From Candidatus Poribacteria bacterium (GTDB taxonomy: Bacteria > Poribacteria > WGA-4E > WGA-3G), in contig OZ244616.1 of assembly GCA_965218285.1 (NCBI GenBank), positions 5,635,757-5,699,756 of the forward strand: a stretch of DNA of 64,000 nt. Reading direction: 5' to 3'. Made by a program: the position numbers and the translations under genes. Below, in pieces: positions 11,001 to 63,848 of the stretch. The notes under the pieces are model-generated. The model was not told the DNA's origin. It was given only the letters and a program-made list of their open reading frames with translations, and made no database searches. The stretch's first letter is position 1; every line of letters starts with the position of its first letter.

Positions 11001-12077
11001 CTATGCCTTGACAATATTCACTGACTGTCCATTTTCTGATGACTCATAGATGCCATCAAGCATCTGCATCAACATTACACCTTGTTCTGCTGAGGAGATA
11101 GGTTCTGTCCCGTCTACTATACACCCTACGAAATGTTTTACTTCTTCATCAAAGCCATTAATTGAGGGTGCTTCAAGCTGCTTATTGAGTTCCTTTCCAT
11201 CTTCCTCTGTGTAAAGCATGAAAGGATTGAGGGTTGCGCCGGCTTTAGTCCCAGCAATTTTAATGTAGTTGTCTCCGGGTAAGTTGAGTGACCACGTCGT
11301 TTCAAGGATTACGGTGGCCCCATTTTCAAAAAGGATTTGGGCAAAGGTTGCATCATCAACATCGTATTTTACGTCTTTTGGCACAAGGTGTGAAAAGTGT
11401 GAATATGCTGCACCCATAACCGCCACGGGTCTTGGTGAACCCATTAACCACCATACACAATCTAAAGCGTGAACTCCAATATCAATAAGTGCTCCACCGC
11501 CAGAACGTTCTTTATCGACGAACCAACCGCCTTTACCGATAGGAATACCACGACGGCGTACATAAGCAGCTTTGCCAAAATAAACGTCACCGAGTTCACC
11601 TTCTTGAACCAGTTGTTTGAGTTTCTGGCTATTTCCGCCGAACCGCTGCACGAGGGCGTACATCAAAGTCTTGCTGTTTTGATGCGCTGCATCCGCTATT
11701 TCTCTGGCTTCCTGTGTACTCCGAGCAGGCGGTTTTTCACAAAGCACATGTTTTCCGGTGTTGAGTGCATCAATAGCAATAGGTGCGTGGAGGAAATTCG
11801 GCAGACAGACACTAACAGCATCAATATCTTTGTTTTCCAACATCTCCAGATGGTTTGTATAGGCATTAGGGATGTCATGTTCCTTAGCTACTTCTTGGGT
11901 ACGCTTTTCATCAAGATCGCAGACTGCAATGACTTCAGAACGAGGGTCAATGGTATAGCCTTTGAGGTGTTGCATCCCGGGCCAACCGAGTCCGACGACA
12001 GCCGCTCTTACCTTTGTGGTTTTATTTTTCATGGTATTTGCTCCTTTACGGATTTTGTTTGTGTATATTATACCCAA
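11001..12077 (-). CDS. Gfo/Idh/MocA family NAD(P)-dependent oxidoreductase. Start probably MKNKTTKVRAAVVG.
   Basis: N-terminal Rossmann AVVGLGWPG, EKP motif (CEKPPAR), typical C-terminal alpha/beta domain. Confidence 0.7.
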   Translation of the reverse strand: MGIIYTNKIRKGANTMKNKTTKVRAAVVGLGWPGMQHLKGYTIDPRSEVIAVCDLDEKRTQEVAKEHDIPNAYTNHLEMLENKDIDAVSVCLPNFLHAPIAIDALNTGKHVLCEKPPARSTQEAREIADAAHQNSKTLMYALVQRFGGNSQKLKQLVQEGELGDVYFGKAAYVRRRGIPIGKGGWFVDKERSGGGALIDIGVHALDCVWWLMGSPRPVAVMGAAYSHFSHLVPKDVKYDVDDATFAQILFENGATVILETTWSLNLPGDNYIKIAGTKAGATLNPFMLYTEEDGKELNKQLEAPSINGFDEEVKHFVGCIVDGTEPISSAEQGVMLMQMLDGIYESSENGQSVNIVKA

Positions 12078-12162
12078 TTAACTTGATTAGAAGTTTTCCG
12101 ATAAAGTCAGCATTGCGAGGAGGACCCAGAGACCTCACGCTACAAATCCCGTTAATTGGGTA

Positions 12163-13404
12163 TTAATCATGGCGAAGTGCTTCGGTTGGGGTGAGACTTG
12201 CAGCTTTGTTTGCGGGATAGATACCGAAAAATACGCCGATGAACGCTGAAACACAGAACGCGATAACAGCTGCCTGAACAGATACAACTGCAGGCCAAGT
12301 TGCATCTTTAATCATGAATGTTGAGATGACCCAACCTGATCCGGTAGCAAGCGCACTGCCAATAAAAATACCGATAAGACCCCCACAAATGCTTAAGACA
12401 ATTGATTCAATCAGAAATTGTATAAGGATGTCGGCACGTCTTGCCCCGATAGATTTGCGTAACCCGATTTCTCGGGTTCTCTCTGTTACGGAAACCAACA
12501 TGATATTCATAATACCGATCCCACCGACAAATAGGGCAATACTGGCAACTGCACCGAGAAGAATCTGAATTATCCGACTTACACTGCCAACCTGCTTTAT
12601 TATCTCCTTGGCCGTAAAAAAATCAAAATATTTTTCATCACCGTGTTGTTGGCGAAAGGCGACTTTGATTTCAGCGACAGCTTGCTCAACTTTATCATAA
12701 CTCTCTGCTTGTGCAAACAGCATGATCCAGCCTTTCTGCTTGCCGATAAAACGCGCCCCCATTGTGGTGATCGGTATAATCACACGATTATCCCACCCCT
12801 CACTTGCCATCTTATTGCCTTTTGCCTCCATGACTCCGATGACGGTGAACCGTTCTCTGTCAATTTTTAACTCCCTACCAATAGGATCATCCATCTGAAA
12901 TAGGTCTTTATGCACTTCAGAACCGATCAAACAGATAGGGTCATCCCGTCCCATGTCTTCTTCGGTAAAAAACCTTCCTGAATCAACATACCAGTTATTG
13001 ACATCTTGAAAATAGGGTGTCACGCCATGCACTTGAAGCGATTGATTAACATGTCTGTGTGATACGCGGCGCACCATGCGAGATTGCGCGGTAGCTGTTT
13101 TAAGAGAGGGGCACATTTTAAGTATAAAGGCGAGGTCTTGATACTCAATATATTCCGGATGCTTATTTTTTATATAAGAACCATCTGTTCTACGAATATG
13201 TTCCTTACGGAAGCAGACGATCATGCCTGCGCCACCGACCCGTTCCAGTTCAATCAGTACTAGGTGTTCGGCACCACCGCCGACTGAAACTACAGCGACA
13301 ACAGCCGCAATGCCGATGATGATTCCAAGTGTTGTAAGCACGGAACGTAATTTGTTACGTCTTAGTGCTGCTAAGCCAACGCTAATGCCTTGCGTAATCT
13401 GCAT
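12163..13404 (-). CDS. ABC transporter permease, MacB/FtsX family
   Basis: N-terminal TM helix plus periplasmic MacB_PCD-like domain. C-terminal FtsX 3-TM bundle (..GIGIMNIMLVSVTERTREIGLRKSIGA..). Confidence 0.7.
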   Translation of the reverse strand: MQITQGISVGLAALRRNKLRSVLTTLGIIIGIAAVVAVVSVGGGAEHLVLIELERVGGAGMIVCFRKEHIRRTDGSYIKNKHPEYIEYQDLAFILKMCPSLKTATAQSRMVRRVSHRHVNQSLQVHGVTPYFQDVNNWYVDSGRFFTEEDMGRDDPICLIGSEVHKDLFQMDDPIGRELKIDRERFTVIGVMEAKGNKMASEGWDNRVIIPITTMGARFIGKQKGWIMLFAQAESYDKVEQAVAEIKVAFRQQHGDEKYFDFFTAKEIIKQVGSVSRIIQILLGAVASIALFVGGIGIMNIMLVSVTERTREIGLRKSIGARRADILIQFLIESIVLSICGGLIGIFIGSALATGSGWVISTFMIKDATWPAVVSVQAAVIAFCVSAFIGVFFGIYPANKAASLTPTEALRHD

Positions 13405-29644: not shown

Positions 29645-29884
29645 CGGTAGCGAAACCATAGGCGTCAATTTAAGGAAAGAACTCGTTTGTAGTCGCGCAC
29701 TTCATAGTGCCTCGGACATTCAAAGAAAAGAGGCGCTATGAATTGCGCGACTACGAACGCTGATATTCTCGTCCTTTGCGTTATTTGAGATGTTGATACA
29801 AAAAGGTGCGGTTAGGAAACCGCACCTACCGGGTTGGGAACCGCTAAATTGACGCTTATGGTGCGGTTAGGAAACCGCACCTAC
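29645..29884. mobile_element. MITE of the ggtgcggtt-palindrome TIR family (type 2 interior with a 29-bp-stem hairpin). Left TIR truncated.
   Basis: Shares ataggcgtcaatttaaggaaagaactcgtttgtagtcgcgca...gaggcgctatgaattgcgcgactacgaacgctgatattctcgtcctttgcg with the units at 45412-46524. Right end has two copies of ggtgcggttaggaaaccgcacc. Confidence 0.5.
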
Positions 29885-32348: not shown

Positions 32349-32441
32349 CTTAACCTACAGTGTATATAAGAGGCGCAATGAATTGCGCGACTACAAACCT
32401 ACAGTGTATATAAGAGGCGCAATGAATTGCGCGACTACAAA
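32349..32441. repeat. tandem duplication (2 x 44 bp) of ctacagtgtatataagaggcgcaatgaattgcgcgactacaaac. Contains one arm of the 29-nt MITE hairpin.
   Basis: Read directly. The same arm occurs singly at 4416-4445 and 5423-5450, and as hairpin pairs at 29690-29760 and throughout 45412-46524. Confidence 0.5.
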
Positions 32442-32550
32442 CGCGCCTCTTTTCAAGTCAACATTCCATGAAAATCGGGCGGACAAAGCCTTCCTACCAT
32501 TTTTGCTTCGGCAAAGTCAATATGCGAAAACCGACAGATAGAGTTATGAA

Positions 32551-34066: not shown

Positions 34067-35014
34067 CTACTTTACCTCAATAGATTCCATTGCATTCTGA
34101 AGCGACTTGAGCAACTCTCCTAAGAAATCTTGCGGCGGTACAAGGATAATTTCAATTCTACGATTTTTTGCCTTCGCCTCCGCCGTTTCTGCCATATCTA
34201 TCGGTTGGTAAAACGCATATCCCGTTGCTGCTAAACGTTCTGGAGCAACTTTGGCATTTTCTTGCAGATACTTTACTGCGGAGATTGCCCGCTGTGTTGA
34301 GAGATCCCAGTTCCGTAGTGCCGAACCAGCGATCGGGTTGTTGTCTGTATGTCCTTCAATACGAATTGCGTAATCTGAATAATCAGCGTTTAGCAGGACC
34401 TCTTCTGCAATTGCGTCAAGGAGCTTTTTGCCTTCTGTACTCAGAACATCGCTACCTGTTTCGAACAGAATTTTACCTTTGACGTCAAGCGTCAGTCGTC
34501 CTGCTTCATCCAACACAGCCCCGACTGTATCTTTAAACCTATCTTGGATAGCCGCTATTGAACGTTGTGATTGATCGCGAATCCGCTGCAATTCGGTTTC
34601 AATCTTGGTCAGTTTTGTGCGGAGACTCTCCTTTTCGCTTTCAAGCGCGCTTTTGTCCTGTTGCAGTTTGTTCCGTTCAGCAGCAATTTTCCGTGCTGCT
34701 TCGCTGGCATTTTCCAATATTTCTTTCGTTTGGCTCAGTTCAGTCTGCGTGCCTTTGAGATTCTTCTCGGTTTCAGTTAACTTCTTTTCCAACTCGGTTT
34801 TCGCAGTTTCAGTCTCTTGCAATGTTGTCTTGGTCGTAGACAAGTCTGTTTCAGTAGCAGACAGTTCTGTCTGGGTCTGCTCAAGTTTGTCAGAAGTTGT
34901 ATAAAGTAAAACACCCAGCACGATTGCTGCAATAACAGTAATGATTATAGATATGACTGCAATGATTCCTTTTTTACCCATCTTATTCTCCTTGTAAGCT
35001 AAGTATGATATCAA
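34067..35014 (-). CDS. OmpA/MotB-domain protein with an N-terminal TM helix and coiled coil. Start probably MGKKGIIAV at 34981.
   Basis: C-terminal OmpA-like motif ..RIEGHTDN.PI.....NW.LS..RA..V..YL. Ends RRIEIIL. Confidence 0.7.
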   Translation of the reverse strand: MISYLAYKENKMGKKGIIAVISIIITVIAAIVLGVLLYTTSDKLEQTQTELSATETDLSTTKTTLQETETAKTELEKKLTETEKNLKGTQTELSQTKEILENASEAARKIAAERNKLQQDKSALESEKESLRTKLTKIETELQRIRDQSQRSIAAIQDRFKDTVGAVLDEAGRLTLDVKGKILFETGSDVLSTEGKKLLDAIAEEVLLNADYSDYAIRIEGHTDNNPIAGSALRNWDLSTQRAISAVKYLQENAKVAPERLAATGYAFYQPIDMAETAEAKAKNRRIEIILVPPQDFLGELLKSLQNAMESIEVK

Positions 35015-35279
35015 AACTATCGTATTTTGATGTCTTATTCTTTTTTGTTATGTCGCACACGGTGCAACGGTGGATAAGGATATAATCACCCTGCTTCATG
35101 GTGAACCCAATCGGTTCCATTAATCCGCAACAGGTCTCAGCGCGATCACCTGGATGGACATCTACATGTTGACTCCAGAGACATTCCGGACAGTGGTTGG
35201 TATAGCCATTTCCCTCCACAAATACACCGCAATTCCCGCATGTAAAATCTTCAATGTGACGTTGAAATTTCTTGTTCAC
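34983..35279 (-). CDS. RNHCP-domain zinc-ribbon protein
   Basis: FTCGNCG....YTNHCPECLWS.H.D...GDRAETCCGLM ... HRCTVC cysteine pattern. Confidence 0.5.
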   Translation of the reverse strand: MNKKFQRHIEDFTCGNCGVFVEGNGYTNHCPECLWSQHVDVHPGDRAETCCGLMEPIGFTMKQGDYILIHRCTVCDITKKNKTSKYDSFDIILSLQGE

Positions 35280-35297: not shown

Positions 35298-35498
35298 TTA
35301 GCATGTGTGATTCGGTATAAAAACACCACATTCTTCATGTGCTGCTTCGTTGAAACTCTGTGCCTTTCGTTGGAGGTAGGAGTTGCCTTTATACCCAGTT
35401 TTTCGCGAGATTTCAACATTAAAATGCTCAAGAATTTTAGTCGCAACTGTATCACTGAGTCTATCCTCAATCGCAAGAATTACGTTTTTTAATCCCAT
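35298..35498 (-). CDS. small ORF (66 aa) immediately downstream of the AAA ATPase. Possibly a truncated partner-protein N-terminus (DUF4276/TOPRIM-like VILAIEDRLSDTVATKIL).
   Basis: The 4-bp overlap with the ATPase gene suggests translational coupling. The ORF ends 18 bp before the next gene. Confidence 0.3.
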   Translation of the reverse strand: MGLKNVILAIEDRLSDTVATKILEHFNVEISRKTGYKGNSYLQRKAQSFNEAAHEECGVFIPNHTC

Positions 35499-36637
35499 TC
35501 CAATAAACTCAATTGTTTGGGGTATCTGGTTAACACGATTTCACCCACTGTAATCCCATTTTTAAGGAGGACACACACTTCCTCAAAATCGGAGGCGGGT
35601 TTAACCACTGTCCCTCCTTTGCCAGGTGTGAGCATTAGTACTTCTCTACCATCAATGCCAGGTTCAATAAGAAGCACATCACTTTGTGTGCTAATTAAAA
35701 CTTGGCATCCACTGTTTCTCCGCATCCGAGAAATCAGAGGAGCAAGTTGAGAAACAATTCCGAGATTCAATGAGAGTTCAGGTTCTTCTAACAATACTAT
35801 TGAATCGTTTTCGAGAAGTGCCCACAAGAGTCCAATAAGCCGAAGCATCCCATCCGAAAATTGATCTTCTTGATGTCCATCTTCATTTGAACCCCAGTGC
35901 GAATAATGTGCCTGTAAATGTGGTTGTCCCGTCGTTTTGTCGCGAACAAATTCCAATTTTTCGAACTGTGGAACTGCTACTTTAAGGGCATATTCAATTT
36001 TTTTGAGACAGGAACGGCGGGTGCTCGGATGGGTACTTGCGACTCTTTCAAGAAATCCCTGCCCAAAGGGATCGTCTTCAATAATTTTGCCCTGAATTGC
36101 ATCCGAAAATCGGATAAATTGTGGCACCAGATGGAGATAGGTGACGTGTCGGAGGAATCTGCCAATCTCTCGGAATTTTGCATTGGAACCACTCTGTTCA
36201 AGGGCGGTCTGGGTAAGGCGATCTGGATCCTGGTTATCGTCTGAATCGGGTCTATCAAGAAGCAGTTCACCTTCTCTCCAGACGCGTTCATACGTGAGAT
36301 AGGCTTGGCAATCGTCGCGAGTCTCTTGGCGAAATCCTACACCATATTGCCACGTAGCAGGTTCATCTGGTGTTTCCGCGATGTGAATTTCGATTGCAAC
36401 TTCTGGTTCATGTCCCGCGGACAAACACCTTATTTTGGAGACACCGCCCCGATCTTTGACTGCTTTCTGAAATCCACCACCATCCACTTTGACAATATCG
36501 CGGAGAAAGCGGAAAATGTCAAGCAGATTGGATTTACCTGATGCGTTTGGACCAACGATAAACTGCCGCTCCCTAAGGGGAACATTAACCTGTTGAAAAT
36601 TTCGCCAGTTTTTGGCAATAAGTCGATTGATTATCAT
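35489..36637 (-). CDS. AAA_21/ABC-type ATPase (SMC-like P-loop ATPase)
   Basis: Walker A GPNASGKSN. ABC-signature-like FSDGMLRL. Walker B IVLLEEPE. D-/H-loop STQS. No transmembrane or transporter partner. Confidence 0.7.
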   Translation of the reverse strand: MIINRLIAKNWRNFQQVNVPLRERQFIVGPNASGKSNLLDIFRFLRDIVKVDGGGFQKAVKDRGGVSKIRCLSAGHEPEVAIEIHIAETPDEPATWQYGVGFRQETRDDCQAYLTYERVWREGELLLDRPDSDDNQDPDRLTQTALEQSGSNAKFREIGRFLRHVTYLHLVPQFIRFSDAIQGKIIEDDPFGQGFLERVASTHPSTRRSCLKKIEYALKVAVPQFEKLEFVRDKTTGQPHLQAHYSHWGSNEDGHQEDQFSDGMLRLIGLLWALLENDSIVLLEEPELSLNLGIVSQLAPLISRMRRNSGCQVLISTQSDVLLIEPGIDGREVLMLTPGKGGTVVKPASDFEEVCVLLKNGITVGEIVLTRYPKQLSLLEWD

Positions 36638-36778: not shown

Positions 36779-38962
36779 TTACATATCTAAATAAGGTGTC
36801 ACATCCCAAAGCAAGATAGTGCCATCAAAACCGCCACTTGCCAGCAGCGTGCTATCCGGTGAAAACGCAAGTGACTGAACGTCTGTCGTATGTCCCCAGA
36901 AGGTATGGATATTCTCACCGGTAGCAACGTCCCACAGACAGATTGCCATTTTCTTCGTTCCACCCCACCATGCACCAGAGGCAAGGTGCCTACCGCACGG
37001 TGAAAATGCAAGCGCATAAGCCCTTTGGTTGTTCTCAGGCTGCGGTATCGTCCGAATTAGACTCAAGTTTTCAGCAGACCACAAACGGATTTCTCCTTCT
37101 ATTGCACCAGCAATCACATTGCCACATGGCGAAAAGGTTATTCCCCGAATTGTATCACAAGTTTCTGATGCAGCAATTTCTTCACCGATCTCAACATCCC
37201 ACAGTCGAACAATTCCATTCCATCTACCCAATACCAATTGCCTTCCATCGGGGGAAAACATCATAGAAGTAACGTCATCACTATGTCCTGTGTCTAATTC
37301 CATATTTTCGTGAGACTGAATATTCCAGATATAGAGGGGACGCTCATCATTACCATCCTTGTTTGACGTGACACGCGCCATCGCAATCCTATCGCCCGTA
37401 GGTGCAAATACTATAGGACATGATAATCCAGGTATTGAGATACTATCAATTATCTTATTAGGTTTTCGTATATCACACACTTTAAGTGAATTTTCATCGG
37501 TTCTGTCAACCACAAGTAAACTGCCATTAGCCAAGAAAGTGAAAGAACGTATATGTCTATCTTTCATCAATATTTTATGTCCGTGCTTGCCTTCAACATT
37601 CCAAAATACAATGCCGTTCCGCACACCCGTGCTTGCTAACGTCTTTCCATTCGGTGAAAACGCTAACGGTTCTGGAAAACATGTAGGTTCACGAAGCGTT
37701 AAAAATGTATGCGTTTTATCAGATGTTGCCGAATTATTAGAAAGTGTGTGAGCAATTGCCAATTGTGGGCATTCTGAAAACCACTCCGCCCCAATGCTTT
37801 CCGTTTGTCGTTCATAAGTGCTAAGTTTTTCGCAGCGATCCACATCCCATACTTCGATTATTTCAGTACTACGAGGGAACACCGTGGTATATAGTGTGCC
37901 TTCCGGTGAATAGAACGGTTTTACCCACGGCATGTATCGTCCCGCATTCTCAGAAGCAACCTTTTTTAGCATCCAGCGTAAAAAGTTCACTAACAAATTC
38001 TTTGAATCAACTCCATAGTACGTATAATCCTTCTTCTGCACACCCGTTGTGATTTCCCATACTCGTAAGGTCCCGCCGCTATCACTTGAGGCGAGAAACT
38101 GTCCGCACGGTGAGAAGATGAGATTATCAACCCGATTTTTGTGTTCTCTAAAACAAGCGATGCGATCCTTTGTTTCTATATCCCACACTGAAACACAGCG
38201 GTGAACGCCGACTGCACCATTTTCAGTATCGTCAGGACTTGCACACGCCAGCAAACGACTATCTGGTGAAAAAGTGAATTTTCCGCCAGCAAACTTGGCT
38301 ATCCGTTCACCAGTCTCCGGATGCCATAGGTAGGTATATGGTTCTTTTGTTGCAACGCTAACTATGTTGTCATACGCTTCCACAGGAGTAGTGAATGTCG
38401 CAGCGATGATTTTGCTATTAGGTGAAAATGCAAGTTCGAAAGTAGTGTTACGATCTTTTCCTCTTGCATCTGGTTGAGGTTGAGAAACACATTCACCACA
38501 CTTAGCACCAAACACCTCAATAACGCTCATATTCGATACAGCAGTGGCAACCCACTTACTATCCGGTGAAAAAGCAATATAATCAGCCGCTAAATATATT
38601 TTCCGCTTCATTTTCGCGAGGCAATCGCCGCTTTGAACATCCAGTACCTTAACGATGCCGTCCCAATTTGTTATTGCAATTCGCTTACCATCCTTTGAGA
38701 ACTCAACGCCGTTAATCAGTCCTTGTTCTGTTTCCCACAACGCAATCGGTAACATTGACGAAACATCGTACCACCAGAGTCCCATGCCAGTCCCAGCGAC
38801 AAAATGAGTGCCATCCGGGGACAGTGCAACATCACCTAAGGATGCGTGCCTACTGTGTGTCCCTTTACCCAACCGGAAAATTGCCCCCTCCGGTAATGCC
38901 CAGGTTGTTCCTGTAGTGTCGTTTGGTACGACATTAAATGGTGCGGGTTTTGGGTTTGACAT
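36779..38962 (-). CDS. WD40-repeat beta-propeller protein (727 aa, at least 12 blades)
   Basis: Recurrent GH...V..FSPDG.......DG..R(L/V)WD motifs. Confidence 0.8.
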   Translation of the reverse strand: MSNPKPAPFNVVPNDTTGTTWALPEGAIFRLGKGTHSRHASLGDVALSPDGTHFVAGTGMGLWWYDVSSMLPIALWETEQGLINGVEFSKDGKRIAITNWDGIVKVLDVQSGDCLAKMKRKIYLAADYIAFSPDSKWVATAVSNMSVIEVFGAKCGECVSQPQPDARGKDRNTTFELAFSPNSKIIAATFTTPVEAYDNIVSVATKEPYTYLWHPETGERIAKFAGGKFTFSPDSRLLACASPDDTENGAVGVHRCVSVWDIETKDRIACFREHKNRVDNLIFSPCGQFLASSDSGGTLRVWEITTGVQKKDYTYYGVDSKNLLVNFLRWMLKKVASENAGRYMPWVKPFYSPEGTLYTTVFPRSTEIIEVWDVDRCEKLSTYERQTESIGAEWFSECPQLAIAHTLSNNSATSDKTHTFLTLREPTCFPEPLAFSPNGKTLASTGVRNGIVFWNVEGKHGHKILMKDRHIRSFTFLANGSLLVVDRTDENSLKVCDIRKPNKIIDSISIPGLSCPIVFAPTGDRIAMARVTSNKDGNDERPLYIWNIQSHENMELDTGHSDDVTSMMFSPDGRQLVLGRWNGIVRLWDVEIGEEIAASETCDTIRGITFSPCGNVIAGAIEGEIRLWSAENLSLIRTIPQPENNQRAYALAFSPCGRHLASGAWWGGTKKMAICLWDVATGENIHTFWGHTTDVQSLAFSPDSTLLASGGFDGTILLWDVTPYLDM

Positions 38963-38993
38963 TGTATTAATGTATTAATTCCTTACTATACAG

Positions 38994-39747
38994 ATCGCTG
39001 AGGCACGGGGACCTTGCGCTACACTTTTTTGACTGCGCTGAGGCACGGGGACCTTGCGCTACACTTTTTTGACTGCGCTGATGCACGGGGACCTTGCGCT
39101 ACACTTTTTTGACTGCGCTGAGGCACGGGGACCTTGCGCTACACTCTTTTTTGACTGCGCTGAGGCACGGGGACCTTGCGCTACACTCTTTTGACTGCGC
39201 TGGGGCACGGGGACCTTGCGCTACACTTTTTTGACTGCGCTGGGGCACGGGGACCTTGCGCTACACTCTTTTGACTGCGCTGGGGCACGGGGACCTTGCG
39301 CTACACTCTTTTTTGACTGCGCTGGGGCACGGGGACCTTGCGCTACACTTTTTTGACTGCGCTGGGGCACGGGGACCTTGCGCTACACTCTTTTGACTGC
39401 GCTGGGGCACGGGGACCTTGCGCTACACTTTTTTGACTGCGCTGATGCACGGGGACCTTGCGCTACACTTTTTTGACTGCGCTGATGCACGGGGACCTTG
39501 CGCTACACTTTTTTGACTGCGCTGGGGCACGGGGACCTTGCGCTACACTTTTTTGACTGCGCTGATGCACGGGGACCTTGCGCTACACTTTTTTGACTGC
39601 GCTGGGGCACGGGGACCTTGCGCTACACTTTTTTGACTGCGCTGATGCACGGGGACCTTGCGCTACACTTTTTTGACTGCGCTGGGGCACGGGGACCTTG
39701 CGCTACACTTTTTTGACTGCGCTGAGGCACGGGGACCTTGCGCTACA
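38994..39747. repeat. tandem array of about 19 copies of a 40-42-bp unit gcgctg(a/g)(g/t)gcacggggaccttgcgctacac(tc)ttttttgact, with no intervening unique spacers
   Basis: Read directly. Unit-length jitter (40/41/42) and 3 variable positions. Lies between the WD40 gene start and the M20 peptidase gene end. Confidence 0.85.
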
Positions 39748-39753
39748 ATGTAC

Positions 39754-40995
39754 TTACGAAAGTGATGCACGCGTCATAAAGGTTGCATAGATAGCAGAAG
39801 TCCGCACCAGATCAGGAATATGAACCCGTTCATTTATTGCATGACCTCCCTCACCCCTCGGTCCATAGCCAATTCCCGGCAAGCCTATATTGACAAAATA
39901 GTGCAAGTCTGTAAAACCAGTAGTGCTTTTAAATCGCGGTTGATTGTATCTTATAGTACGCACTGCATTGGCAAAATCTTGCGCTAAAGGAGATTCGGTA
40001 TCCGTTAAGCACGGTTCAATTCGTAAAATAACTTGCACTTCAGTCTTCAAATCCGAATAGTACTCACACGCCCCTAAAATCGCCTCCCGTAACTCAAGTT
40101 CAGCAAACTCCAATTTTTCATTCGGTGTAACCCGTCGATCAATCGAGAACGTGAGACGTGCCGGAACAGTGTTGACTTTATCTCCCTCAGTTCCACAAAA
40201 CGTTCCGCCAATGTTCAACGTCGGATAACGATCAGAACCATCAGGCAGTTTAAATGCGCGTTCAGGCGACTTCAAATCCCGTTTAACTCTTTGTAATGCC
40301 GATACAAGTTCAGTTGTTTTCTCAAAGGCATTTATCCCTTTACCCGGCTGTGACCCGTGTGCTGCTTTCCCCTGAACTTCAATTTCCAACCAAAGTACAC
40401 CGTTATGCCCGTTGCCGATGTACATCTCCGATCCACCCTCGCAATTGACAACGTAGTCCGCGTTGACCAATCCCTTCTCAACAATATATCCGGCCCCTAA
40501 CTGACCACCAGTCTCCTCATCACAAGTAAACGAACATTCAATGTTAAACAAAGGCTCTATACCACTCTCCTGCACAGCCTGAATTGCAAATAGAAGGGCA
40601 GCAATAGCATCCTTCATATCATCGGCACCGCGCCCGTAAAGCCATTCACCTTCAATCTTTCCGCTAAACGGATCATTGAAACGCCACTCCCCTGCCACTG
40701 GCACTACATCGTAATGTGCATTGAAATGTACTGTTTTTTCTGCACCAACATCCCAGCGTGCAATCAGGTTCAACCGTGGATGGCTTGATGCGTTTGAAAT
40801 CACTTGTTCAGCCTGTCGTTTTGGAACCTTCACAACTTTTGTCTTCATCCCCAACGTCTTGCACTTCGCTTCAAGTAACTCAACAATCTCGGCATAATTC
40901 TCACCCGGTGGATTCACAGTAGGAATTCTAACGAGTTCTTGTAGCAACCTACACAACGAAACTTGATTGTCCTTAATATAGGTTTGTACAGACAT
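39754..40995 (-). CDS. M20-family metallopeptidase (ArgE/DapE/succinyl-DAP desuccinylase-like)
   Basis: HFNAHYDVVP, GRGADDMKD, dimerisation-domain layout, HG..PG metal-site motifs. Confidence 0.7.
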   Translation of the reverse strand: MSVQTYIKDNQVSLCRLLQELVRIPTVNPPGENYAEIVELLEAKCKTLGMKTKVVKVPKRQAEQVISNASSHPRLNLIARWDVGAEKTVHFNAHYDVVPVAGEWRFNDPFSGKIEGEWLYGRGADDMKDAIAALLFAIQAVQESGIEPLFNIECSFTCDEETGGQLGAGYIVEKGLVNADYVVNCEGGSEMYIGNGHNGVLWLEIEVQGKAAHGSQPGKGINAFEKTTELVSALQRVKRDLKSPERAFKLPDGSDRYPTLNIGGTFCGTEGDKVNTVPARLTFSIDRRVTPNEKLEFAELELREAILGACEYYSDLKTEVQVILRIEPCLTDTESPLAQDFANAVRTIRYNQPRFKSTTGFTDLHYFVNIGLPGIGYGPRGEGGHAINERVHIPDLVRTSAIYATFMTRASLS

Positions 40996-41024
40996 ATCTC
41001 ATGTCTCCTTTAGCAGTTCCCTGT

Positions 41025-41438
41025 TTAGGGGACAACTGCTTGGTCACCCGAAGACAAATGCCCAACCGTTTCACCGGTTTCCGTAAAGGTACGTGTCACC
41101 TCAACAGAGGCGTACGTCCACAAAATCTTCATTGAGGCATTGCTTTCATTCCAAAACCGGTGCGGGATACCAGCAGGAACAAACGTTGTGTCGTAGGTAT
41201 TCATTGTAAAGATTTCGCCATCAACTTCGCAGGTGGCTTCACCTTCAAGAATTGTCACAGATTCATCGCAGTTATGGTAGTGGCGAGCGATCACAGCCCC
41301 TGGTTCAAACATTGTAATGCCATTCGTGAGCGATGTAGAATCAAGCCATTTACCTGCTAACGGCACCGTTTTCACACCGGTGCCACGGTCAATAGGGTTC
41401 TGTTTATCAAAATCAATTACATGTGCTTTTGTGCTCAT
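41025..41438 (-). CDS. cupin-domain protein
   Basis: Cupin_2 motifs: G.V.ARHYH...E..TILEGE and P.GIPHRF. Confidence 0.65.
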   Translation of the reverse strand: MSTKAHVIDFDKQNPIDRGTGVKTVPLAGKWLDSTSLTNGITMFEPGAVIARHYHNCDESVTILEGEATCEVDGEIFTMNTYDTTFVPAGIPHRFWNESNASMKILWTYASVEVTRTFTETGETVGHLSSGDQAVVP

Positions 41439-41536
41439 TTTGGACAGTCTCTCTTAACGTGTATTTGTCATATTTTCACACAAATACACAAAAATTTCAA
41501 CAACTAATACCCAATTAACTGGATTCTAATCTATCA

Positions 41537-41928
41537 GTGCGGTTAGGAAACCGCACCATTGGCGTCAATTTAAGAAAAGTCTGTATTTTTTTGAACACCC
41601 CTCAATAAGCATGATTATTGAGACTGTCCCATATTTAGTCCCGTAGGGACGATATGTTTATAGTACACCGTCCAGACACGTCTCTTTAGCTCCGTCCGAG
41701 CGACATATCCCGATTGGTAACCCATTGCTATAAACATTCCGCCCCTACGGGGCTGAAGAGATTGGGGTTACCACGTTTTCTATAAACATATCGTCCCTAC
41801 GGGACTAAAGAGGGTTTCTCATATTTGAAAAACCGCTAAATTGACGCCAATGGTGCGGTTAGGAAACCGCACCTACCGGGTTGGGGACCGCTAAATTGAC
41901 GCTAATGGTGCGGTTAGGAAACCGCACC
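41537..41928. mobile_element. MITE of the ggtgcggtt-palindrome TIR family (type 1 interior with nested 28-bp inverted repeats tagtcccgtagggacgatatgtttatag)
   Basis: TIRs ggtgcggttaggaaaccgcaccattggcgtcaatttaag at 41537 and the reverse complement cttaaattgacgccaatggtgcggttaggaaaccgcacc at about 41835-41874, plus an extra TIR copy to 41928. Near-identical copy at 51162-51499. Confidence 0.55.
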
Positions 41929-42193
41929 TACCGAGTGGAATCAAGTTAATTGGGTATAACGCCCATTATTAGTAGCAATATGTATATGAATTTGTAAATT
42001 CAGTTGCTATTAAGTAAAAAGTATGTTATAATTCATTCATAAAGTACTAAATATATCCATAAACAGACACTGAGCAAGAAGATTACCACTTAAATTGCTT
42101 GAACGTGCTCACTTTGAGTACCTATCTTGGATGCGCGCCATAGTCTGCAGCATCGTTCTAAATTTGATAATTCTTTAAAGTAAAACGAGGCGA

Positions 42194-44095
42194 TTGGTTG
42201 TGAACAAGAGCACAAAAAACATGTTCGTGTGGTTTATTTTGGGATTGGTTGTTGTTGTCGCTATCTACCAACTTGTCAACCGTAGCGACCAAGTTTACGA
42301 GTTAGCAACATCCGATTTTCATAACTACATAGGACAGGATAAGAACTTCTTTGAAGGCTATCTAATTCTTGATGACGAGTGGGTTGAAGGTAAGTTTGCA
42401 GAGAATTACCGGCCAGGAATTATACAAGACCTAACGTATAAAGAAGCACTCCTCCCCCCAAAGTGGCAGGGAGGTTTTAAAGCAAGTCGTGATACAAATG
42501 ATGATTACAATATACAAGAGAAACTTGATAAATCCCGTATTCCCTACCAAGTAAAGCCAAGGTCTAATTTTCCGGATTTTTTACTCATTTTTGGTACAAC
42601 AGTAGTGCCCTTGTTAATATTTTTAGGTTTGATGATATTTCTATCCCGCCAGATGCAAGGGAGCGGAAATCGTGCGCTCTCTTTTGGCAAAAGCAAGGCA
42701 AGACTCCATACTGAAAATGAAAACAGAGTTACCTTTGAAGATGTAGCAGGGGTTGACGAGGCAAAAGATGCACTTGAAGAGGTTATTGAATTCCTTAAAG
42801 CACCTAAGAAGTATGAACGTCTGGGTGGAATCATTCCCAAAGGTGTATTGTTAGTTGGTCCTCCCGGTACTGGCAAAACAATGCTGGCGCAAGCTGTCGC
42901 AGGTGAAGCGGATGTCCCATTTTTTAGCATTAGCGGCTCCGACTTTGTCGAAATGTTTGTCGGTGTTGGCGCATCAAGAGTTCGCGATCTGTTTGAGACT
43001 GGAAAGAAAAGCGCACCTTGTATTATTTTTATTGATGAATTGGATGCGGTTGGACGCCATCGCGGTGCAGGTATCGGTGGCGGACACGACGAGCGAGAAC
43101 AAACCTTAAACGCACTGCTTGTACAGATGCAGGGGTTTGAGCCGTCTAGCAACGTTATTTTGATCGCAGCTACGAACCGTCCCGATGTCCTGGACCCTGC
43201 CTTATTACGGCCCGGTAGATTTGATCGACAAATCATTGTTGATCTGCCTGATGTCCGTGGTAGACAAGCAATTCTCGTTGTCCACACAAGAGACCCCTAT
43301 AAAATTGCCGATGATGTCAGATTGGAGATTTTAGCAAAAGCGACACCAGGATTTTCAGGTGCAGATCTGAAAAATATGGCGAACGAAGCCGCACTGCTCG
43401 CTGCGAGACAGGACAAAGATATGATTGACATGGCATGCTTTGATGAGGCTAAAGATCGTGTCTTGATGGGACCTGAACGTCGTAGTTTGGTCATCAGTGA
43501 TGAAGAGAGACGCATCACAGCATATCATGAAGCAGGACATGCGCTCATGCTGCATTTTGTGCCAGAAAGCGATCCTAACTATAAATGTACAATTGTACCC
43601 CGTGGTAGAGCTCTCGGTGTAACCGCTAAACTCCCACTTGAAGAACGGCATAATCTAAGTAAGAAGGGACTCCTTGCCCATATTATCTTCGCGTTAGGGG
43701 GTCGAGTTTCTGAAGAAATTATTTTCGGCGAACAGACAACCGGTGCGCAAAACGATTTTGAACAGGCGACTCATCTTGCACGTCGAATGGTCACTCAGTG
43801 GGGTATGAGTCCATTAGGACCATTGACTTTCGGCAGAAGAGACGAGCAAATCTTTCTCGGTAAAGAATTGGCAATTCACCAAGATTATAGTGAACAGACC
43901 GCTATCGCTATTGATAAAGCAGTTTACGACATCGTAATGGAATGTTACGACAAAGCGAAAGAGATTATAGAGATAAACTTGGAAGGCTTGAAACTACTTG
44001 CAGACGCCTTGTTAGAACACGAAACTCTAATTACCGAAGAAATTGAAGACATTCTTGGTCCACGGCCACAATTGCCAGCTAAACCCCTTATATGA
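42194..44095 (+). CDS. ftsH: ATP-dependent zinc metalloprotease FtsH
   Basis: N-terminal TMs, AAA module [18 protein letters not shown] zinc site. Confidence 0.9.
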
Positions 44096-45411: not shown

Positions 45412-46524
45412 GGTGCGGTTTCCGAACCGCACCATTAGCGTCAATTTAAGGAAAGAACTCGTTTGTAGTCGCGCAATTCATTGCGCCTCGGACATTTGAA
45501 GAAAAGAGGCGCTATGAATTGCGCGACTACGAACGCTGATATTCTCGTCCTTTGCGTTATTTGAGATGTTGGGACAAAAAGGTGCAGTTAGGAAACCGCA
45601 CAGTCTCTTATGGAATATGCGTCCGATAACCATTTTCGCGAACGCCTCGGTGCGGTTCCAAACCGCACCATAGGCGTCAATTTAAGGAAAGAACTCGTTT
45701 GTAGTCGCGCAATTCATTGCGCCTCGGACATTTGAAGAAAAGAGGCGCTATGAATTGCGCGACTACGAACGCTGATATTCTCGTCCTTTGCGTTATTTGA
45801 GGTGTTGGGACAAAAAGGTGCAGTTAGGAAACCGCACAGTCTCTTATGGAATATGCGTCCGATAACCATTTTCGCGAACGCCTCGGTGCGGTTCCAAACC
45901 GCACCATAGGCGTCAATTTAAGGAAAGAACTCGTTTGTAGTCGCGCAATTCATTGCGCCTCGGACATTTGAAGAAAAGAGGCGCTATGAATTGCGCGACT
46001 ACGAACGCTGATATTCTCGTCCTTTGCGTTATTTGAGGTGTTGATACAAAAAGGTGCGGTTAGGAAACCGCACCATAGGCGTCAATTTAAGGAAAGAACT
46101 CGTTTGTAGTCGCGCAATTCATTGCGCCTCGGACATTTGAAGAAAAGAGGCGCTATGAATTGCGCGACTACGAACACTGATATTCTCGTCCTTTGCGTTA
46201 TTTGAGGTGTTGATACAAAAAGGTGCGGTTAGGAAACCGCACCATAGGCGTCAATTTAAGGAAAGAACTCGTTTGTAGTCGCGCAATTCATTGCGCCTCG
46301 GACATTTGAAGAAAAGAGGCGCGTGAATTGCGCGACTACGAACGCTGATATTCTCGTCCTTTGCGTTATTTGAGGTGTTGATACAAAAAGGTGCGGTTAG
46401 GAAACCGCACCTACCGTAGTTGGAAACTGCTAAATTGACGCCTATGGTGCGGTTCCAAACCGCACCTACCGGACCTGGAGGATCACTAAATTGACGCATA
46501 AGGGACGGTTAGGAAACCGAACCT
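45412..46524. repeat. tandem array (about 4.5 units of about 245-310 bp) of the ggtgcggtt-TIR MITE family, type 2. Each unit holds a perfect palindrome (ggtgcggtt-loop-aaccgcacc) and a 29-bp-stem hairpin (gtttgtagtcgcgcaattcattgcgcctc ... gaggcgctatgaattgcgcgactacgaac).
   Basis: Read directly. Units more than 95% identical. Immediately downstream of acpS. Confidence 0.7.
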
Positions 46525-46599
46525 ACGAAGCGTCCAAGTAATTCTAAAATCTACTATAGGTCGAACTCACGTTGGGTAAGCATCTCCGTTACATTTTCA

Positions 46600-48549: not shown

Positions 48550-48999
48550 TTGTCGGAGGGATGCATGTTGAGTACGGTAAGATATACAACCACACATGAA
48601 TGGATTGAAGTTGTTGATACAGAGGGAACTATCGGCATTACAGAACGTGCCCAACACCTGCACGGTGAAATTGTTTTTGTTAATATATCCCCTGAACAAG
48701 AATGTGAACAAGGTGAAATTATTGGGAGAATTGAAACCGAAACAGGAGGGAATTTTTACCTCTATGCACCAGTCGCAGGAGAAATATACGAAGTCAACAC
48801 GTCACTTGAAGAAGAGGTAGAACTTATCAACAGTTTGCCTGAAAGCGATGGATGGATTTGCAAAATCTACATTGACAATCTTAGCGAACTTGACTCACTT
48901 CTGACTCTTGAAGATTATGAAGACTATGAAGAAGATGAACTGGATGAAGGTGAGTACTTACCAGAAACCGATTTTTTTGAAAATATTGACGACTATTGA
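48550..48999 (+). CDS. glycine-cleavage H-protein-like protein lacking the lipoyl-lysine, with an acidic C-terminal tail
   Basis: VRYTTTHEWIEV.DTEGTIGITE.AQ..GEIVFV ... YAPVAGEI.EVN ... DGWICKI align to GcvH. The conserved E-S-V-K-A is I-E-T-E-T here. Confidence 0.6.
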   Translation: MSEGCMLSTVRYTTTHEWIEVVDTEGTIGITERAQHLHGEIVFVNISPEQECEQGEIIGRIETETGGNFYLYAPVAGEIYEVNTSLEEEVELINSLPESDGWICKIYIDNLSELDSLLTLEDYEDYEEDELDEGEYLPETDFFENIDDY

Positions 49000-49001
49000 T
49001 T

Positions 49002-49123
49002 CAGGGCTATTTAGTTTTAGACTTTTTGTCCATTTTAGACGAAAAGTCGCGATTCGGAGATCGCTCGGATAGGGGAAAGTCTTAGATTGAAAATCTAAAT
49101 ATTCGGAGAACTAAATAGCCCTG
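49002..49123. mobile_element. 122-bp MITE with TIRs cagggctatttagtt / aactaaatagccctg (copy 1)
   Basis: Inverted termini read directly. Starts immediately after the gcvH-like stop codon. Confidence 0.45.
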
Positions 49124-49180
49124 CTATTGATTAGCGTTGCTGGCAATAAAAATACGTCGCACAAGACTCAGCTATTGATT

Positions 49181-49302
49181 CAGGGCTATTTAGTTTTAGA
49201 CTTTTTGTCCATTTTAGACGAAAAGTCGCGATTCGGAGATCGCTCGGACAGGGGAAAGTCTTAGATTGAAAATCTAAATATTCGGAGAACTAAATAGCCC
49301 TG
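49181..49302. mobile_element. 122-bp MITE copy 2. Part of a 175-bp tandem duplication (49008-49182 and 49183-49357) that also duplicates the last 15 codons of the downstream methyltransferase gene.
   Basis: Direct comparison of the two blocks. Confidence 0.45.
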
Positions 49303-50235: not shown

Positions 50236-50236
50236 C

Positions 50237-51161: not shown

Positions 51162-51499
51162 GGTGCGGTTTCCTAACCGCACCATAGGTGTCAATTTAAG
51201 GAAACGTCTATGTTTTTATGAACCCTTATCAATAGGCATGGTTATTGATATTGTCGGACATTTAGTCCCGTAGGGACGATATGTTTATAGTACACCGTCC
51301 AGACACGTCTCTTTAGCTCTGTCCGAGCGACATATCCGGATTGGTAACCCATTGCTATAAACATTCCGCCCCTACGGGGCTGAAGAGATTGGGGTTACCA
51401 CGTTTTCTATAAACATATCGTCCCTACGGGACTAAAGAGGGTTTCTCATATTTGAAAAACCACTAAATTGACGCCTATGGTGCGGTTTTCTAACCGCAC
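51162..51499. mobile_element. MITE of the ggtgcggtt-palindrome TIR family, type 1 (second copy)
   Basis: About 97% identical to 41537-41874, including the internal nested inverted repeats. Confidence 0.55.
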
Positions 51500-51549
51500 T
51501 GCGTAAAATAAAATAGGCTTGTTATAATTCTCATCCTAAAGGTCTTGCT

Positions 51550-63530: not shown

Positions 63531-63848
63531 ACTTTGATCATAGAATTTCAAATGTTTAATAACAAACCTGATTCTCTTCACATAAGTTAAATATATATTG
63601 ACTTTTAAATTTTTTAATGTATAATTTATTCAGGCTTACGTAAAAATCCAGCAAATTGCTTTCAAGTACATATCCAAGAAAGGATCCTGGATTAAAATTT
63701 AGCAAACGTAAGTCCTATTATCATACCGAATTACCCCGATTTGTCCTGTGAGGTCCCCGTGCCTTGCAATGCTAACTTTATCAGCAAACTTCAGATCCAG
63801 TTAATTTGGTATCAGTTGTTTTATATAAAATAAATAGGAGCACTTGGA

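What the first reader, a model, noticed from the sequence alone, without database searches (positions are those of the whole stretch)
38994..39747. 40-bp x ~19 spacer-less tandem array between the WD40 gene and the M20 peptidase gene
The copies are near-perfect. Only three positions vary (gag, ggg or atg at one site, and a +/-ct indel). Unit length jitters between 40, 41 and 42 bp, so the array cannot encode a peptide repeat.

There are no unique spacers, so it is not a CRISPR array. The core cacggggacc also occurs, inverted, 75 bp upstream of dnaN (63745-63770).

The array might be iterons, a protein-binding array, or a hypervariable satellite that changes WD40-gene expression with copy number. 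Arrays like this are also classic assembly-collapse sites.
Basis: seen in the sequence. Interest (0 to 1): 0.5.

Follow-up and report, generated by a model that had tools for sequence, protein, structure and literature searches.

The report
Copy-number-variable REP hairpin array in Poribacteria
The 40-bp array is real: it is one small palindromic "REP"-type repeat plus 12 bp of its flank, copied head-to-tail 19 times between two genes of a Poribacteria operon, and close relatives carry 0, 1, 4 or 5 copies at the same spot, so it is an ordinary bacterial minisatellite and not a new kind of system.

Summary
Window 38996-39747 carries 18 full units plus one truncated unit: 16 of 40 bp, 2 of 42 bp, none of 41 bp. 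The array starts 6 nt after the stop codon of an M20 peptidase gene and ends 33 nt before the start codon of a WD40 gene. Both genes are on the - strand.

On that strand each unit reads TGTAG-CGCAAGG-TCCCCGTG-CCTCAGCG followed by CAGTCAAAAAAG. That is a GTAG-tagged imperfect palindrome of the REP type plus a short linker.

The same core sits in a dispersed ~90-95-bp MITE-like hairpin element. The "inverted core" near dnaN is one full copy of it (63723-63812). A Candidatus Poribacteria chromosome, OZ250160.1, carries more copies, including one in frame inside leuS.

Relatives whose flanks are ~96-97% identical have 0, 1, 4 or 5 units at exactly this site, so this is a variable-number tandem repeat. 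A 91%-identity relative has one degenerate unit followed by a linker-like flank, which explains where the linker came from.

I found no Rfam hit, ORF, promoter, terminator, cas gene, rep gene or DnaA-box cluster. The array most likely grows and shrinks by replication slippage or unequal recombination. It probably acts only as a transcribed intercistronic spacer that may loosen WD40 expression from the peptidase. That functional step is inferred, not shown. It is a new member of a known kind, of low to moderate interest.

The parts
38996..39747 (-). Head-to-tail array of 19 REP-type cores: 18 complete units of 40 or 42 bp plus a terminal core next to the peptidase gene. On the - strand each unit is a 28-bp core, TGTAG-CGCAAGG-TCCCCGTG-CCTCAGCG, followed by the 12-bp linker CAGTCAAAAAAG.
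   Evidence: The two end units carry the CCTCAGCG (AG) form seen in the relatives' units. The GG and AT variants are interior and partly alternate as 80-bp blocks in units 13-18.
39720..39747 (-). The REP core nearest the peptidase gene. TGTAG starts 6 nt after the peptidase stop codon (39754-39756) and the stem starts 10 nt after it.
   Evidence: This is the position typical of REPs lying between genes transcribed in the same direction, less than 20 bp from the upstream stop (PMC3733652).
38963..38995 (-). 33-nt leader between the array and the WD40 ATG. It holds a Shine-Dalgarno-like AAGGA (38980-38984) and an 8-bp tandem duplication, TTAATACA x2 (38963-38978), which widens the AAGGA-to-ATG gap from 9 nt to 17 nt.
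   Evidence: The duplication is absent from L007, L017 and L019.
39754..40995 (-). M20 peptidase (ArgE/DapE-type deacylase) gene, the cistron upstream of the array.
   Evidence: Pfam Peptidase_M20 E 2e-33 and M20_dimer. Homologues are named ArgE/DapE family deacylase [Candidatus Poribacteria bacterium].
36779..38962 (-). WD40 beta-propeller gene, the cistron downstream of the array.
   Evidence: Pfam WD40 E 6e-47 and many beta-propeller models. In L009, L012 and L018 a WD40 gene starts only 16 bp after the peptidase stop, which implies co-transcription.
63723..63812 (-). Dispersed ~90-bp MITE-like hairpin element carrying the same core, GGCACGGGGACC. It ends 36 bp upstream of dnaN.
   Evidence: it aligns end to end with eight copies from OZ250160.1, with terminal inverted repeats ATACCAAATTAAC...GTTAATTGGGTAT. 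dnaN is confirmed.
12070..12165 (+). Second copy of the MITE-like element, with a diverged central loop (TGCGAGG-AGGACCCAGAGA-CCTCACGCTACA).
32352..32442 (-). A different GTAG-tagged REP (TTTGTAGTCGCGCAATTCATTGCGCCTC) plus flank, repeated head-to-tail 2.1 times with a 44-bp period. It has the same architecture as the array at small scale.

Best explanation
The array is a variable-number tandem repeat seeded by a REP-type element.

**What it is made of.** A single GTAG-tagged imperfect palindrome belongs to a repeat family dispersed in this Poribacteria lineage. It sat just after the stop codon of the M20 peptidase gene, inside a same-strand gene cluster: cupin, M20 peptidase, WD40, AAA_21 ATPase, and further genes. 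That 28-bp core, together with 12 bp of its downstream flank, has been reiterated head-to-tail.

**How it changes.** Copy number drifts by replication slippage or unequal recombination between the near-identical 40-bp units. Conspecific populations carry 0, 1, 4, 5 or 19 copies.

**What it probably does (inferred).** The array has no promoter or terminator of its own, so it is most likely transcribed as part of the operon mRNA. It then acts only as a long, weakly structured intercistronic spacer. This stretches a 16-59-bp gap to 791 bp and so loosens or lowers expression of the WD40 gene and the genes after it relative to the peptidase.

**Status of each step.** The identity of the unit, its family membership and the copy-number variation are shown. 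The slippage mechanism follows from established knowledge of tandem repeats. Transcription and any effect on expression are inferred.
For: **Unit anatomy.**
- The unit starts with TGTAG and then forms a 4+3/4-bp stem with one bulge around an 8-nt loop.
- As single-stranded DNA the 33-nt core folds at -5.8 kcal/mol, z -2.4.
- CTACA (the reverse complement of TGTAG) is kept in 14 of 16 distinct copies.

**Dispersed family.**
- The exact 20-mer occurs at four loci of Candidatus Poribacteria OZ250160.1, and about ten cores lie in 32 kb sampled around those four matches, so the sample is biased towards the family.
- Most of these lie inside a ~94-nt hairpin element with 20-bp terminal inverted repeats, z -5 to -6.
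- They sit mostly just downstream of ORFs. One is in frame inside leuS.
- Window copies lie at 63723-63812 and 12070-12165.

**REP-rich window.** Another GTAG family has 16 copies, including a 44-bp x2 head-to-tail tandem and reiterated inverted dimers.

**Allelic series** at the identical site, in contigs 96-97% identical in the flanks:
- L009 and L018: 0 units.
- L005/L006 and L019: 1 unit.
- L007: 4 units.
- L017: 5 units.
- Window: 19 units.

**Origin of the linker.** L020-L023 (peptidase 91% identical) carry one degenerate unit followed by CAGCATAAACAG. The array linker is CAGTCAAAAAAG.

**Signs of stepwise growth.** The ancestral AG variant sits at both ends and derived variants sit inside, with 80-bp higher-order periodicity.

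**Nothing else detected.**
- No Rfam hit.
- No promoter-like or terminator-like site in the array.
- No ORF.

[quoted passage not shown] REPs between same-direction genes lie less than 20 bp from the upstream stop. Intragenic REPs occur in tRNA synthetase genes (PMC3733652).
Against: **Against full REP membership.**
- No RAYT or Y1 transposase was found in the window or in the related loci examined (and the gene tables). A whole genome could not be searched.
- Covariation for the hairpin is not significant.
- The 40-nt unit does not fold better than shuffled sequence as RNA on either strand, z +0.13 and -0.62.
- On the mRNA (-) strand the stem has an A.C mismatch where the + strand has G.U. 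Any RNA-hairpin function in the operon transcript would therefore be weak.
- Head-to-tail REP dimers are reported as rare in most genomes, so a 19-unit direct array is at the unusual end.

**Limits of the copy-number evidence.**
- The single-unit alleles lack the linker, so they may be collapses of arrays, not ancestors.
- L009 and L019 come from short contigs, apparently short-read assemblies, which can mis-resolve repeats.
- The window's own copy number cannot be checked against reads.
Confidence: 0.8

Rival explanations
1. Contingency-type regulator. Expansion and contraction of the array is selected because copy number tunes or switches expression of the WD40 gene and the downstream defence-like ATPase. 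It would do so through RNA processing, partial termination or altered DNA topology.
For: - The array sits directly upstream of the WD40 start, 33 nt away, in a region that varies between conspecifics.
- The WD40 allele itself is replaced in L009, L018 and L005.
- A second small duplication widens the Shine-Dalgarno-to-ATG spacing in the same leader.
- The downstream ATPase matches PADLOC HEC-01A at E 3e-136.
- Arrays of GTAG repeats flanking EPS genes in Thauera were suggested to modulate expression (PMC3733652).
Against: - No promoter or terminator signal lies in the units and the hairpins are weak.
- No expression data are available.
- Only five alleles have been seen.
- Variation of this kind is expected from neutral slippage alone.
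Confidence: 0.12
2. Assembly artefact. The true locus has one or a few units and the assembler inflated, or otherwise mis-resolved, the repeat.
For: - Tandem arrays are classic mis-assembly sites.
- Short-read contigs of relatives end just beyond this site (L010, L021-L023).
- The copy number in the window cannot be verified here.
Against: - Seven distinct unit variants are arranged in an ordered, non-random pattern. That is not what a collapsed or looped graph path gives.
- Two independent assemblies, whose contig names (ctgN_Nx_l) look like long-read metagenome assemblies, carry 4 and 5 units of the same unit and linker at the same site.
- At 752 bp the array is short compared with long reads.
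Confidence: 0.04
3. Iterons or another dedicated protein-binding array, for example part of a replication origin or a partition site.
For: - There are 19 direct repeats with an invariant 20-bp core and one A6 tract per unit.
- Cumulative GC skew in the window reaches its minimum near 40-44 kb, where gene orientation switches, a few kb from the array.
- dnaN lies 24 kb away.
Against: - No rep, par or dnaA gene lies nearby.
- DnaA boxes are not enriched and none lies in or beside the array.
- The array lies inside a same-strand gene cluster, and close relatives have no units or a single one. An origin component would not be dispensable in this way.
- The skew minimum coincides with the strand switch of the genes and may reflect only that.
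Confidence: 0.03
4. Degenerate or spacer-less CRISPR-like array, or a tandem array of small-RNA genes in the style of NsiR1.
For: - The unit length of 40 bp and the partly palindromic core recall CRISPR repeats.
- The + strand has TTGACT and TACACT hexamers and a T6 run in each unit.
Against: - There are no unique spacers and no cas genes.
- The hexamers are 25 bp apart, too far for a sigma-70 promoter, and the scan finds none.
- GGCACG-N6-TTGC is 2 bp too long for a sigma-54 promoter, and the GG is lost in the AT variant.
- The T-run starts 5 nt after a weak stem, and no terminator was called.
- There is no Rfam match even at E<=1.
Confidence: 0.01

Closest known systems
GTAG-tagged REPs and REP clusters (Di Nocera, De Gregorio & Rocco 2013, PMC3733652), for example the Thermomicrobium roseum GTAG-23 blocks and the Thauera GTAG-1 arrays
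   Same: - The 28-bp core is an imperfect palindrome with a terminal GTAG.
- G.T pairs occur in the stem.
- The family is dispersed and mostly extragenic, with copies just downstream of ORFs and one in-frame copy in a tRNA synthetase gene.
- The cluster is built from a singleton reiterated in tandem with a piece of flanking DNA.
- Several REP families coexist in the same genome.
   Different: - The array is purely head-to-tail with 19 copies, and head-to-tail dimers are reported as rare.
- The loop is 8 nt and highly conserved, whereas most REP loops are 2-4 nt.
- The stem is short and bulged.
- No RAYT has been found so far.
- Poribacteria is not named in the sections of that survey read here.
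E. coli BIMEs (bacterial interspersed mosaic elements) and intercistronic REPs such as malE-malF
   Same: These are clustered REPs between genes of one operon. They are classically held to protect the upstream mRNA from 3' exonucleases and so set differential expression (Newbury et al. 1987, as cited in PMC7509114).
   Different: BIMEs alternate REP orientation and bind IHF, gyrase or Pol I. Here all units are direct, the hairpins are much weaker, and no function has been shown.
MIRU-VNTR minisatellites of Mycobacterium tuberculosis
   Same: These are 40-100-bp units in direct tandem in intergenic gaps, often inside operons, with copy number polymorphic between strains. The typing use is in PMC1988810. 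The operon location is from my own knowledge of Supply et al. 1997/2000.
   Different: MIRUs are not GTAG palindromes, and some carry short ORFs that couple translation. This array has stops in all frames.
MITEs, and the palindrome-associated elements derived from IS200/IS605
   Same: The dispersed ~94-nt relatives of the unit are long hairpins with 20-bp terminal inverted repeats. TnpB genes of IS605 type are frequent nearby.
   Different: The array units lack the terminal inverted repeats. No link between the unit and the ends of the TnpB elements was found: in L005 the element simply abuts the unit's flank.
CRISPR arrays
   Same: Regular ~40-bp periodicity with a partly palindromic repeat.
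   Different: No unique spacers, no cas genes and no leader. The 'spacer' is the same 12-14 bp every time.

Membership tests
GTAG-tagged REP superfamily | A 20-40-bp imperfect palindrome (stem-loop) | tested here: met
   The 28-bp core has a GCGC / A-AGG stem around an 8-nt loop. The ssDNA fold is -5.8 kcal/mol, z -2.4. The MITE-type copies have 7-8-bp stems.
GTAG-tagged REP superfamily | A largely unpaired GTAG motif at one end | tested here: met
   TGTAG precedes the stem in every unit. CTACA is kept in 14 of 16 distinct family copies.
GTAG-tagged REP superfamily | Many dispersed, mainly extragenic copies per genome | tested here: inconclusive
   About ten cores lie in 32 kb sampled from OZ250160.1 around four exact matches, which is a biased sample. 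In the 64-kb window there are only two further copies outside the array.
GTAG-tagged REP superfamily | Stem kept by compensatory changes across copies | tested here: inconclusive
   75.8% of cells are paired, but covariation is no better than shuffles. The two sub-types use different stem registers.
GTAG-tagged REP superfamily | An associated RAYT (Y1 tyrosine transposase) gene in the genome, typically flanked by REPs | not testable with these tools
   No Y1_Tnp hit appeared in the window ORFs or in the ten larger ORFs of L001, L003 and L004 that were scanned, and none is listed among the called genes of the peptidase loci L005-L012 and L017-L023. Only TnpB (OrfB_IS605) was found. The full genome is not available.
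VNTR / minisatellite | Direct tandem copies of a 10-100-bp unit with high identity | tested here: met
   18.7 copies at 95% matches; seven unit variants.
VNTR / minisatellite | Copy number differs between closely related genomes at the same locus | tested here: met
   0, 1, 4, 5 and 19 units between flanks that are 96-97% identical.
CRISPR array | Repeats separated by unique spacers of similar length | tested here: not met
   The 12-14 bp between cores is the same in all units.
CRISPR array | cas genes nearby | tested here: not met
   No Cas effector or adaptation domain appears in any window ORF scanned. The only related hits are TnpB-type Cas12f1-like_TNB domains of IS605 elements, far from the array.
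Iterons / replication origin | An adjacent initiator (rep or dnaA) gene, DnaA boxes, and indispensability | tested here: not met
   No such gene is present. DnaA boxes are at chance level and none is near the array. Close relatives have no units or a single one.
BIME | REPs in alternating orientation with defined linker motifs | tested here: not met
   All 19 cores are in the same orientation.

The most novel reading that the evidence does not exclude
The REP-seeded array is a selected 'rheostat' in a Poribacteria variable island. Slippage-driven changes in unit number (0 to 19) would set how much read-through from the housekeeping peptidase reaches a WD40 protein of the eukaryote-like repeat class and a HEC-01A-type defence ATPase. 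Populations would then differ heritably, yet reversibly, in expression of these genes.
Probability: 0.1. Interest if true: 0.5.

Novelty: new member of a known kind. Interest (0 to 1): 0.25.

Why it matters
**What the result settles.** A striking-looking array turns out to be an ordinary object. It is a REP-type palindrome amplified into a minisatellite, and it needs no new biology.

**What it adds.**
- It documents a GTAG-tagged REP and MITE family in Candidatus Poribacteria, a phylum for which a full-text search paired with 'extragenic palindromic' returned only an unrelated review.
- It gives a clean natural series of 0, 1, 4, 5 and 19 units showing how a single REP plus a few bases of flank grows into an array.

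**Practical uses.**
- The locus could serve as a strain marker for these uncultured bacteria.
- It is a warning site for short-read assemblies.

**If copy number did affect the WD40 gene and the defence-like ATPase,** it would be an example of repeat-driven expression variation in a bacterium that cannot be manipulated genetically. Nothing here shows that.

Tried and rejected
- **Structured RNA.** Rfam at gathering threshold over the whole window, and at E<=1 over 38900-39800, gave nothing. Single units do not fold better than shuffles as RNA.
- **tRNA or tmRNA.** None in the window.
- **Promoter or terminator array.** No site was called in the array. By eye, TTGACT-N25-TACACT is too widely spaced for sigma-70. 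GGCACG-N6-TTGC is 2 bp too long for sigma-54.
- **Coding repeat.** Rejected.
- **Exact look-up of the two flanking proteins.** Neither is on record. The syntenic loci were reached through homologues instead.
- **JGI metagenome and viral scans with GAGGCACGGGGACCTYGCRC.** The metagenome scan gave four hits, three of them in contigs of 65-77% G+C and none with the family's flanking sequence, which is about the number expected by chance. The viral scan gave none. The family was therefore seen only in Poribacteria sequences.
- **Covariation test of the hairpin in two registers.** Not significant.
- **RAYT search.** Nothing in the window or the sampled loci.
- **oriC idea.** No DnaA-box cluster. 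The skew minimum near 42 kb coincides with the gene-strand switch.
- **Link to IS605/TnpB ends.** In L005 the TnpB element abuts the unit's right flank, 17 bp away, but the unit belongs to the shared flank and not to the element.

Full report
**1. The observation**

- Window 38996-39747 is a tandem array: period 40, 18.7 copies, 95% matches, TRF score 1349.
- Splitting on the invariant 20-mer CACGGGGACCTTGCGCTACA gives 19 anchors. The spacings are 40 bp sixteen times and 42 bp twice. No unit is 41 bp.
- The variable sites on the + strand are:
  - positions 6-7 (AG, AT or GG);
  - a T>C substitution in the T-run (3 units);
  - a 2-bp CT insertion (2 units).
- There are seven distinct unit sequences.
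- The 12-mer GGCACGGGGACC with up to 2 mismatches occurs 21 times against 2.5 expected.
- The array is 58.8% G+C; the window is 44.6%.
- All six frames contain stops, and the longest open stretch is 53 codons.

**2. Setting**

- Both neighbouring genes are on the - strand. ORF 39754-40995 is an M20 peptidase of ArgE/DapE type. ORF 36779-38962 is a WD40 beta-propeller protein.
- They belong to a same-strand run of genes:
  - cupin, 41025-41438;
  - M20 peptidase;
  - WD40;
  - AAA_21 ATPase, 35489-36637;
  - a 66-aa ORF;
  - RNHCP, 34983-35279;
  - OmpA-like, 34067-35014.
- Read on the gene strand, TGTAG of the first unit starts 6 nt after the peptidase stop codon. The last unit ends 33 nt before the WD40 ATG.
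- Homologues of the peptidase are named Candidatus Poribacteria. The repeat core was found only in a Candidatus Poribacteria chromosome.

**3. What the unit is**

- On the gene strand the unit reads TGTAG-CGCAAGG-TCCCCGTG-CCTCAGCG followed by CAGTCAAAAAAG.
  - It has a GTAG tag, then a short bulged palindrome (GCGC plus AGG/CCT) around an 8-nt loop, then a 12-bp A-rich linker.
  - As single-stranded DNA the 33-nt core folds at -5.8 kcal/mol, z -2.4.
  - As RNA a 40-nt unit is no better than shuffles on either strand.
- A scan of one genome per species for GCACGGGGACCTTGCGCTAC returned four loci, all in Candidatus Poribacteria OZ250160.1 and each with a single match.
- Around those matches, and at further cores in the same 8-kb stretches, the core sits in the centre of a ~94-nt element.
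  - The element has 20-bp terminal inverted repeats, ATACCAAATTAAC...GTTAATTGGGTAT.
  - It is a strong hairpin, z -5 to -6.
- These copies lie mostly just after ORFs, including after a run of three WD40 genes. One bare core lies in frame inside leuS, where it encodes ...SVAQGPRASATTV....
A second copy with a diverged loop lies at 12070-12165, and a composite with the same inverted repeats lies at 41507-41958.
- The window also holds 16 copies of another GTAG-tagged palindrome, TTTGTAGTCGCGCAATTCATTGCGCCTC.
  - These include a 44-bp x2.1 head-to-tail tandem at 32352-32442.
  - They also include inverted dimers reiterated at 45412-46526.
- This matches the published description of GTAG-tagged REPs (PMC3733652):
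  - a terminal GTAG;
  - 20-40-bp palindromes with frequent G.T pairs;
  - several families per genome;
  - positions less than 20 bp after the upstream stop;
  - occasional in-frame copies, including in tRNA synthetase genes;

**4. The same locus in relatives**

The peptidase has many close homologues. I fetched the DNA around them.

| Locus | Units | Notes |
|---|---|---|
| window | 19 | the finding itself |
| L017 | 5 | flanks 96-97% identical to the window; same WD40 allele, same unit and same linker |
| L007 | 4 | as L017 |
| L019 | 1 | same WD40 allele; right flank like the window's |
| L005/L006 | 1 | same right flank, then an IS605-type TnpB element in place of WD40 and the ATPase |
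| L009, L018 | 0 | a different WD40 allele starts 16 bp after the stop codon; L018 is from a circular 5.93-Mb contig |
| L011 | 1 diverged | peptidase 86% identical |
| L020-L023 | 1 degenerate | peptidase 91% identical; unit followed by CAGCATAAACAG, positionally equivalent to the array linker CAGTCAAAAAAG, then a MITE copy |
| L008, L012 | 0 | peptidase 83-84% identical |

- Copy number at this site therefore differs among conspecific populations.
- The linker is most simply a piece of the original downstream flank that was duplicated together with the core.
- Within the window's array both end units carry the CCTCAGCG form seen in the relatives. The GG and AT variants are interior and partly alternate as 80-bp blocks. 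This is the pattern expected from repeated internal duplications.

**5. How it most likely works**

*Shown.*
- The element is a REP-family core amplified head-to-tail.
- Its copy number is polymorphic.

*From established knowledge of tandem repeats.* Near-identical 40-bp direct repeats expand and contract by slipped-strand mispairing during replication and by unequal recombination.

*Inferred.*
- In three relatives the WD40 gene starts 16 bp after the peptidase stop, so the two genes are co-transcribed.
- The array contains no promoter-like or terminator-like site.
- On the gene strand each hairpin is followed by A-rich sequence, not U-rich sequence.
- It is therefore probably transcribed within the operon mRNA.
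- Its likely effect is passive. It lengthens the intercistronic gap to 791 bp and adds weak stem-loops separated by A-rich single-stranded stretches. This may lower or uncouple expression of WD40 and the genes after it.
- The classical REP role is protection of the upstream mRNA from 3' exonucleases (Newbury et al. 1987, cited in PMC7509114). That role is possible, but the weak folding argues against a strong effect.
- From my own knowledge, unverified here: REPs within ~15 nt of a stop codon have been reported to reduce expression of the upstream gene through ribosome stalling (Liang, Rudd & Deutscher 2015). The first stem here starts 10 nt after the stop.

*My estimates.*
- About 0.8 that the identity and the dynamics are as described.
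- About 0.3 that the array has any measurable effect on expression.
- About 0.1 that copy number is under selection as a regulator.

**6. Rivals**

- **Assembly artefact.** Unlikely, given the ordered internal variants and the independent 4- and 5-unit assemblies. It cannot be tested without reads.
- **Iterons or an origin.**
  - There is no initiator gene, and DnaA boxes are at chance level with none nearby.
  - The array is dispensable.
  - The cumulative GC-skew minimum near 40-44 kb coincides with the switch of gene strand at 41.4-42.2 kb and may reflect only that.
- **CRISPR-like or small-RNA array.** There are no spacers, no cas genes and no Rfam match. The hexamer spacing is wrong for sigma-70 and for sigma-54.

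**7. Limits**

- Covariation support for the hairpin is absent.
- No RAYT was found in the sampled DNA.
- Genome-wide copy number is unknown.
- Two of the low-copy alleles come from short contigs.

**8. Verdict**

- It is explained as a REP-seeded, copy-number-variable minisatellite in a Poribacteria operon.
- It is a new member of a known kind.
- Interest is low to moderate (0.25).

Noticed in passing
window 38963-38979: An 8-bp tandem duplication (TTAATACA x2) lies between the Shine-Dalgarno-like AAGGA and the WD40 ATG. It widens the gap from 9 nt (as in L007, L017 and L019) to 17 nt. This is a second slippage event in the same leader and may weaken translation initiation.
   Followed up: partly
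window 35489-36637 (-): The AAA_21 ATPase just downstream of the WD40 gene matches PADLOC HEC-01A over its full length (E 3e-136). The next ORF is only 66 aa here and in L007 but 209 aa in L012, so a partner gene may be truncated. WD40 plus this ATPase are replaced by a TnpB element in L005/L006, so the block behaves as a variable island.
   Followed up: partly
L002 4440-4475 (OZ250160.1): A bare copy of the REP core (CTGTAGTCGCTGAGGCACGGGGACCTTGCGCTACAG) lies in frame inside an 873-aa leucyl-tRNA synthetase gene, in or next to the editing domain. It adds about 12 residues.
   Followed up: partly
window 45412-46526; also 29689-29880, 41507-41958, 51162-51500: These are complex clusters of two other repeat families. 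One is inverted dimers of GTAGTCGCGCAATTCATWGCGCCTC. The other is the palindrome GGTGCGGTTAGGAAACCGCACC with a TACC tail. They are reiterated with periods of 236, 169 and 56 bp. The window is unusually rich in REP-type elements.
   Followed up: partly
window 6964-8055 (-), 8356-8967 (-), 63098-63457 (+): One apparently complete IS605-type TnpB gene and two TnpB fragments are present, with no TnpA (Y1) gene in the window. TnpB genes also occur at different positions in the syntenic loci L005, L006 and L017.
   Followed up: no
window 16412-25378 (-) and 25497-28205 (-): A 2988-aa protein is built from about 20 Ig-like repeats (DNA periods 369 and 318 bp) and has a C-terminal dockerin domain. Next to it is a 902-aa protein with a cohesin domain, a 36-bp x16.6 coding repeat (27118-27716) and a Por secretion tail. 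They may be a cohesin-dockerin pair.
   Followed up: no
window ~40000-44000: Cumulative GC skew reaches its minimum here. Gene orientation switches from mostly - to mostly + at the 755-bp gap 41439-42193 between the cupin gene and ftsH. There is no DnaA-box cluster there. dnaN is 22 kb to the right and no dnaA gene was recognised in the window.
   Followed up: partly
L020 4070-4190: In the relative whose peptidase is 91% identical, a copy of the MITE-like element follows the single degenerate unit. Its central loop carries an extra ~45-bp insertion that is itself a hairpin. The short-read contigs L021-L023 all end inside this element.
   Followed up: no
window 48993-49350: A 179-bp unit is repeated exactly twice (99% identity). 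It spans the gap between the GcvH-like gene (48550-48999) and the start of the methyltransferase-like gene (49303-50352, - strand).
   Followed up: no
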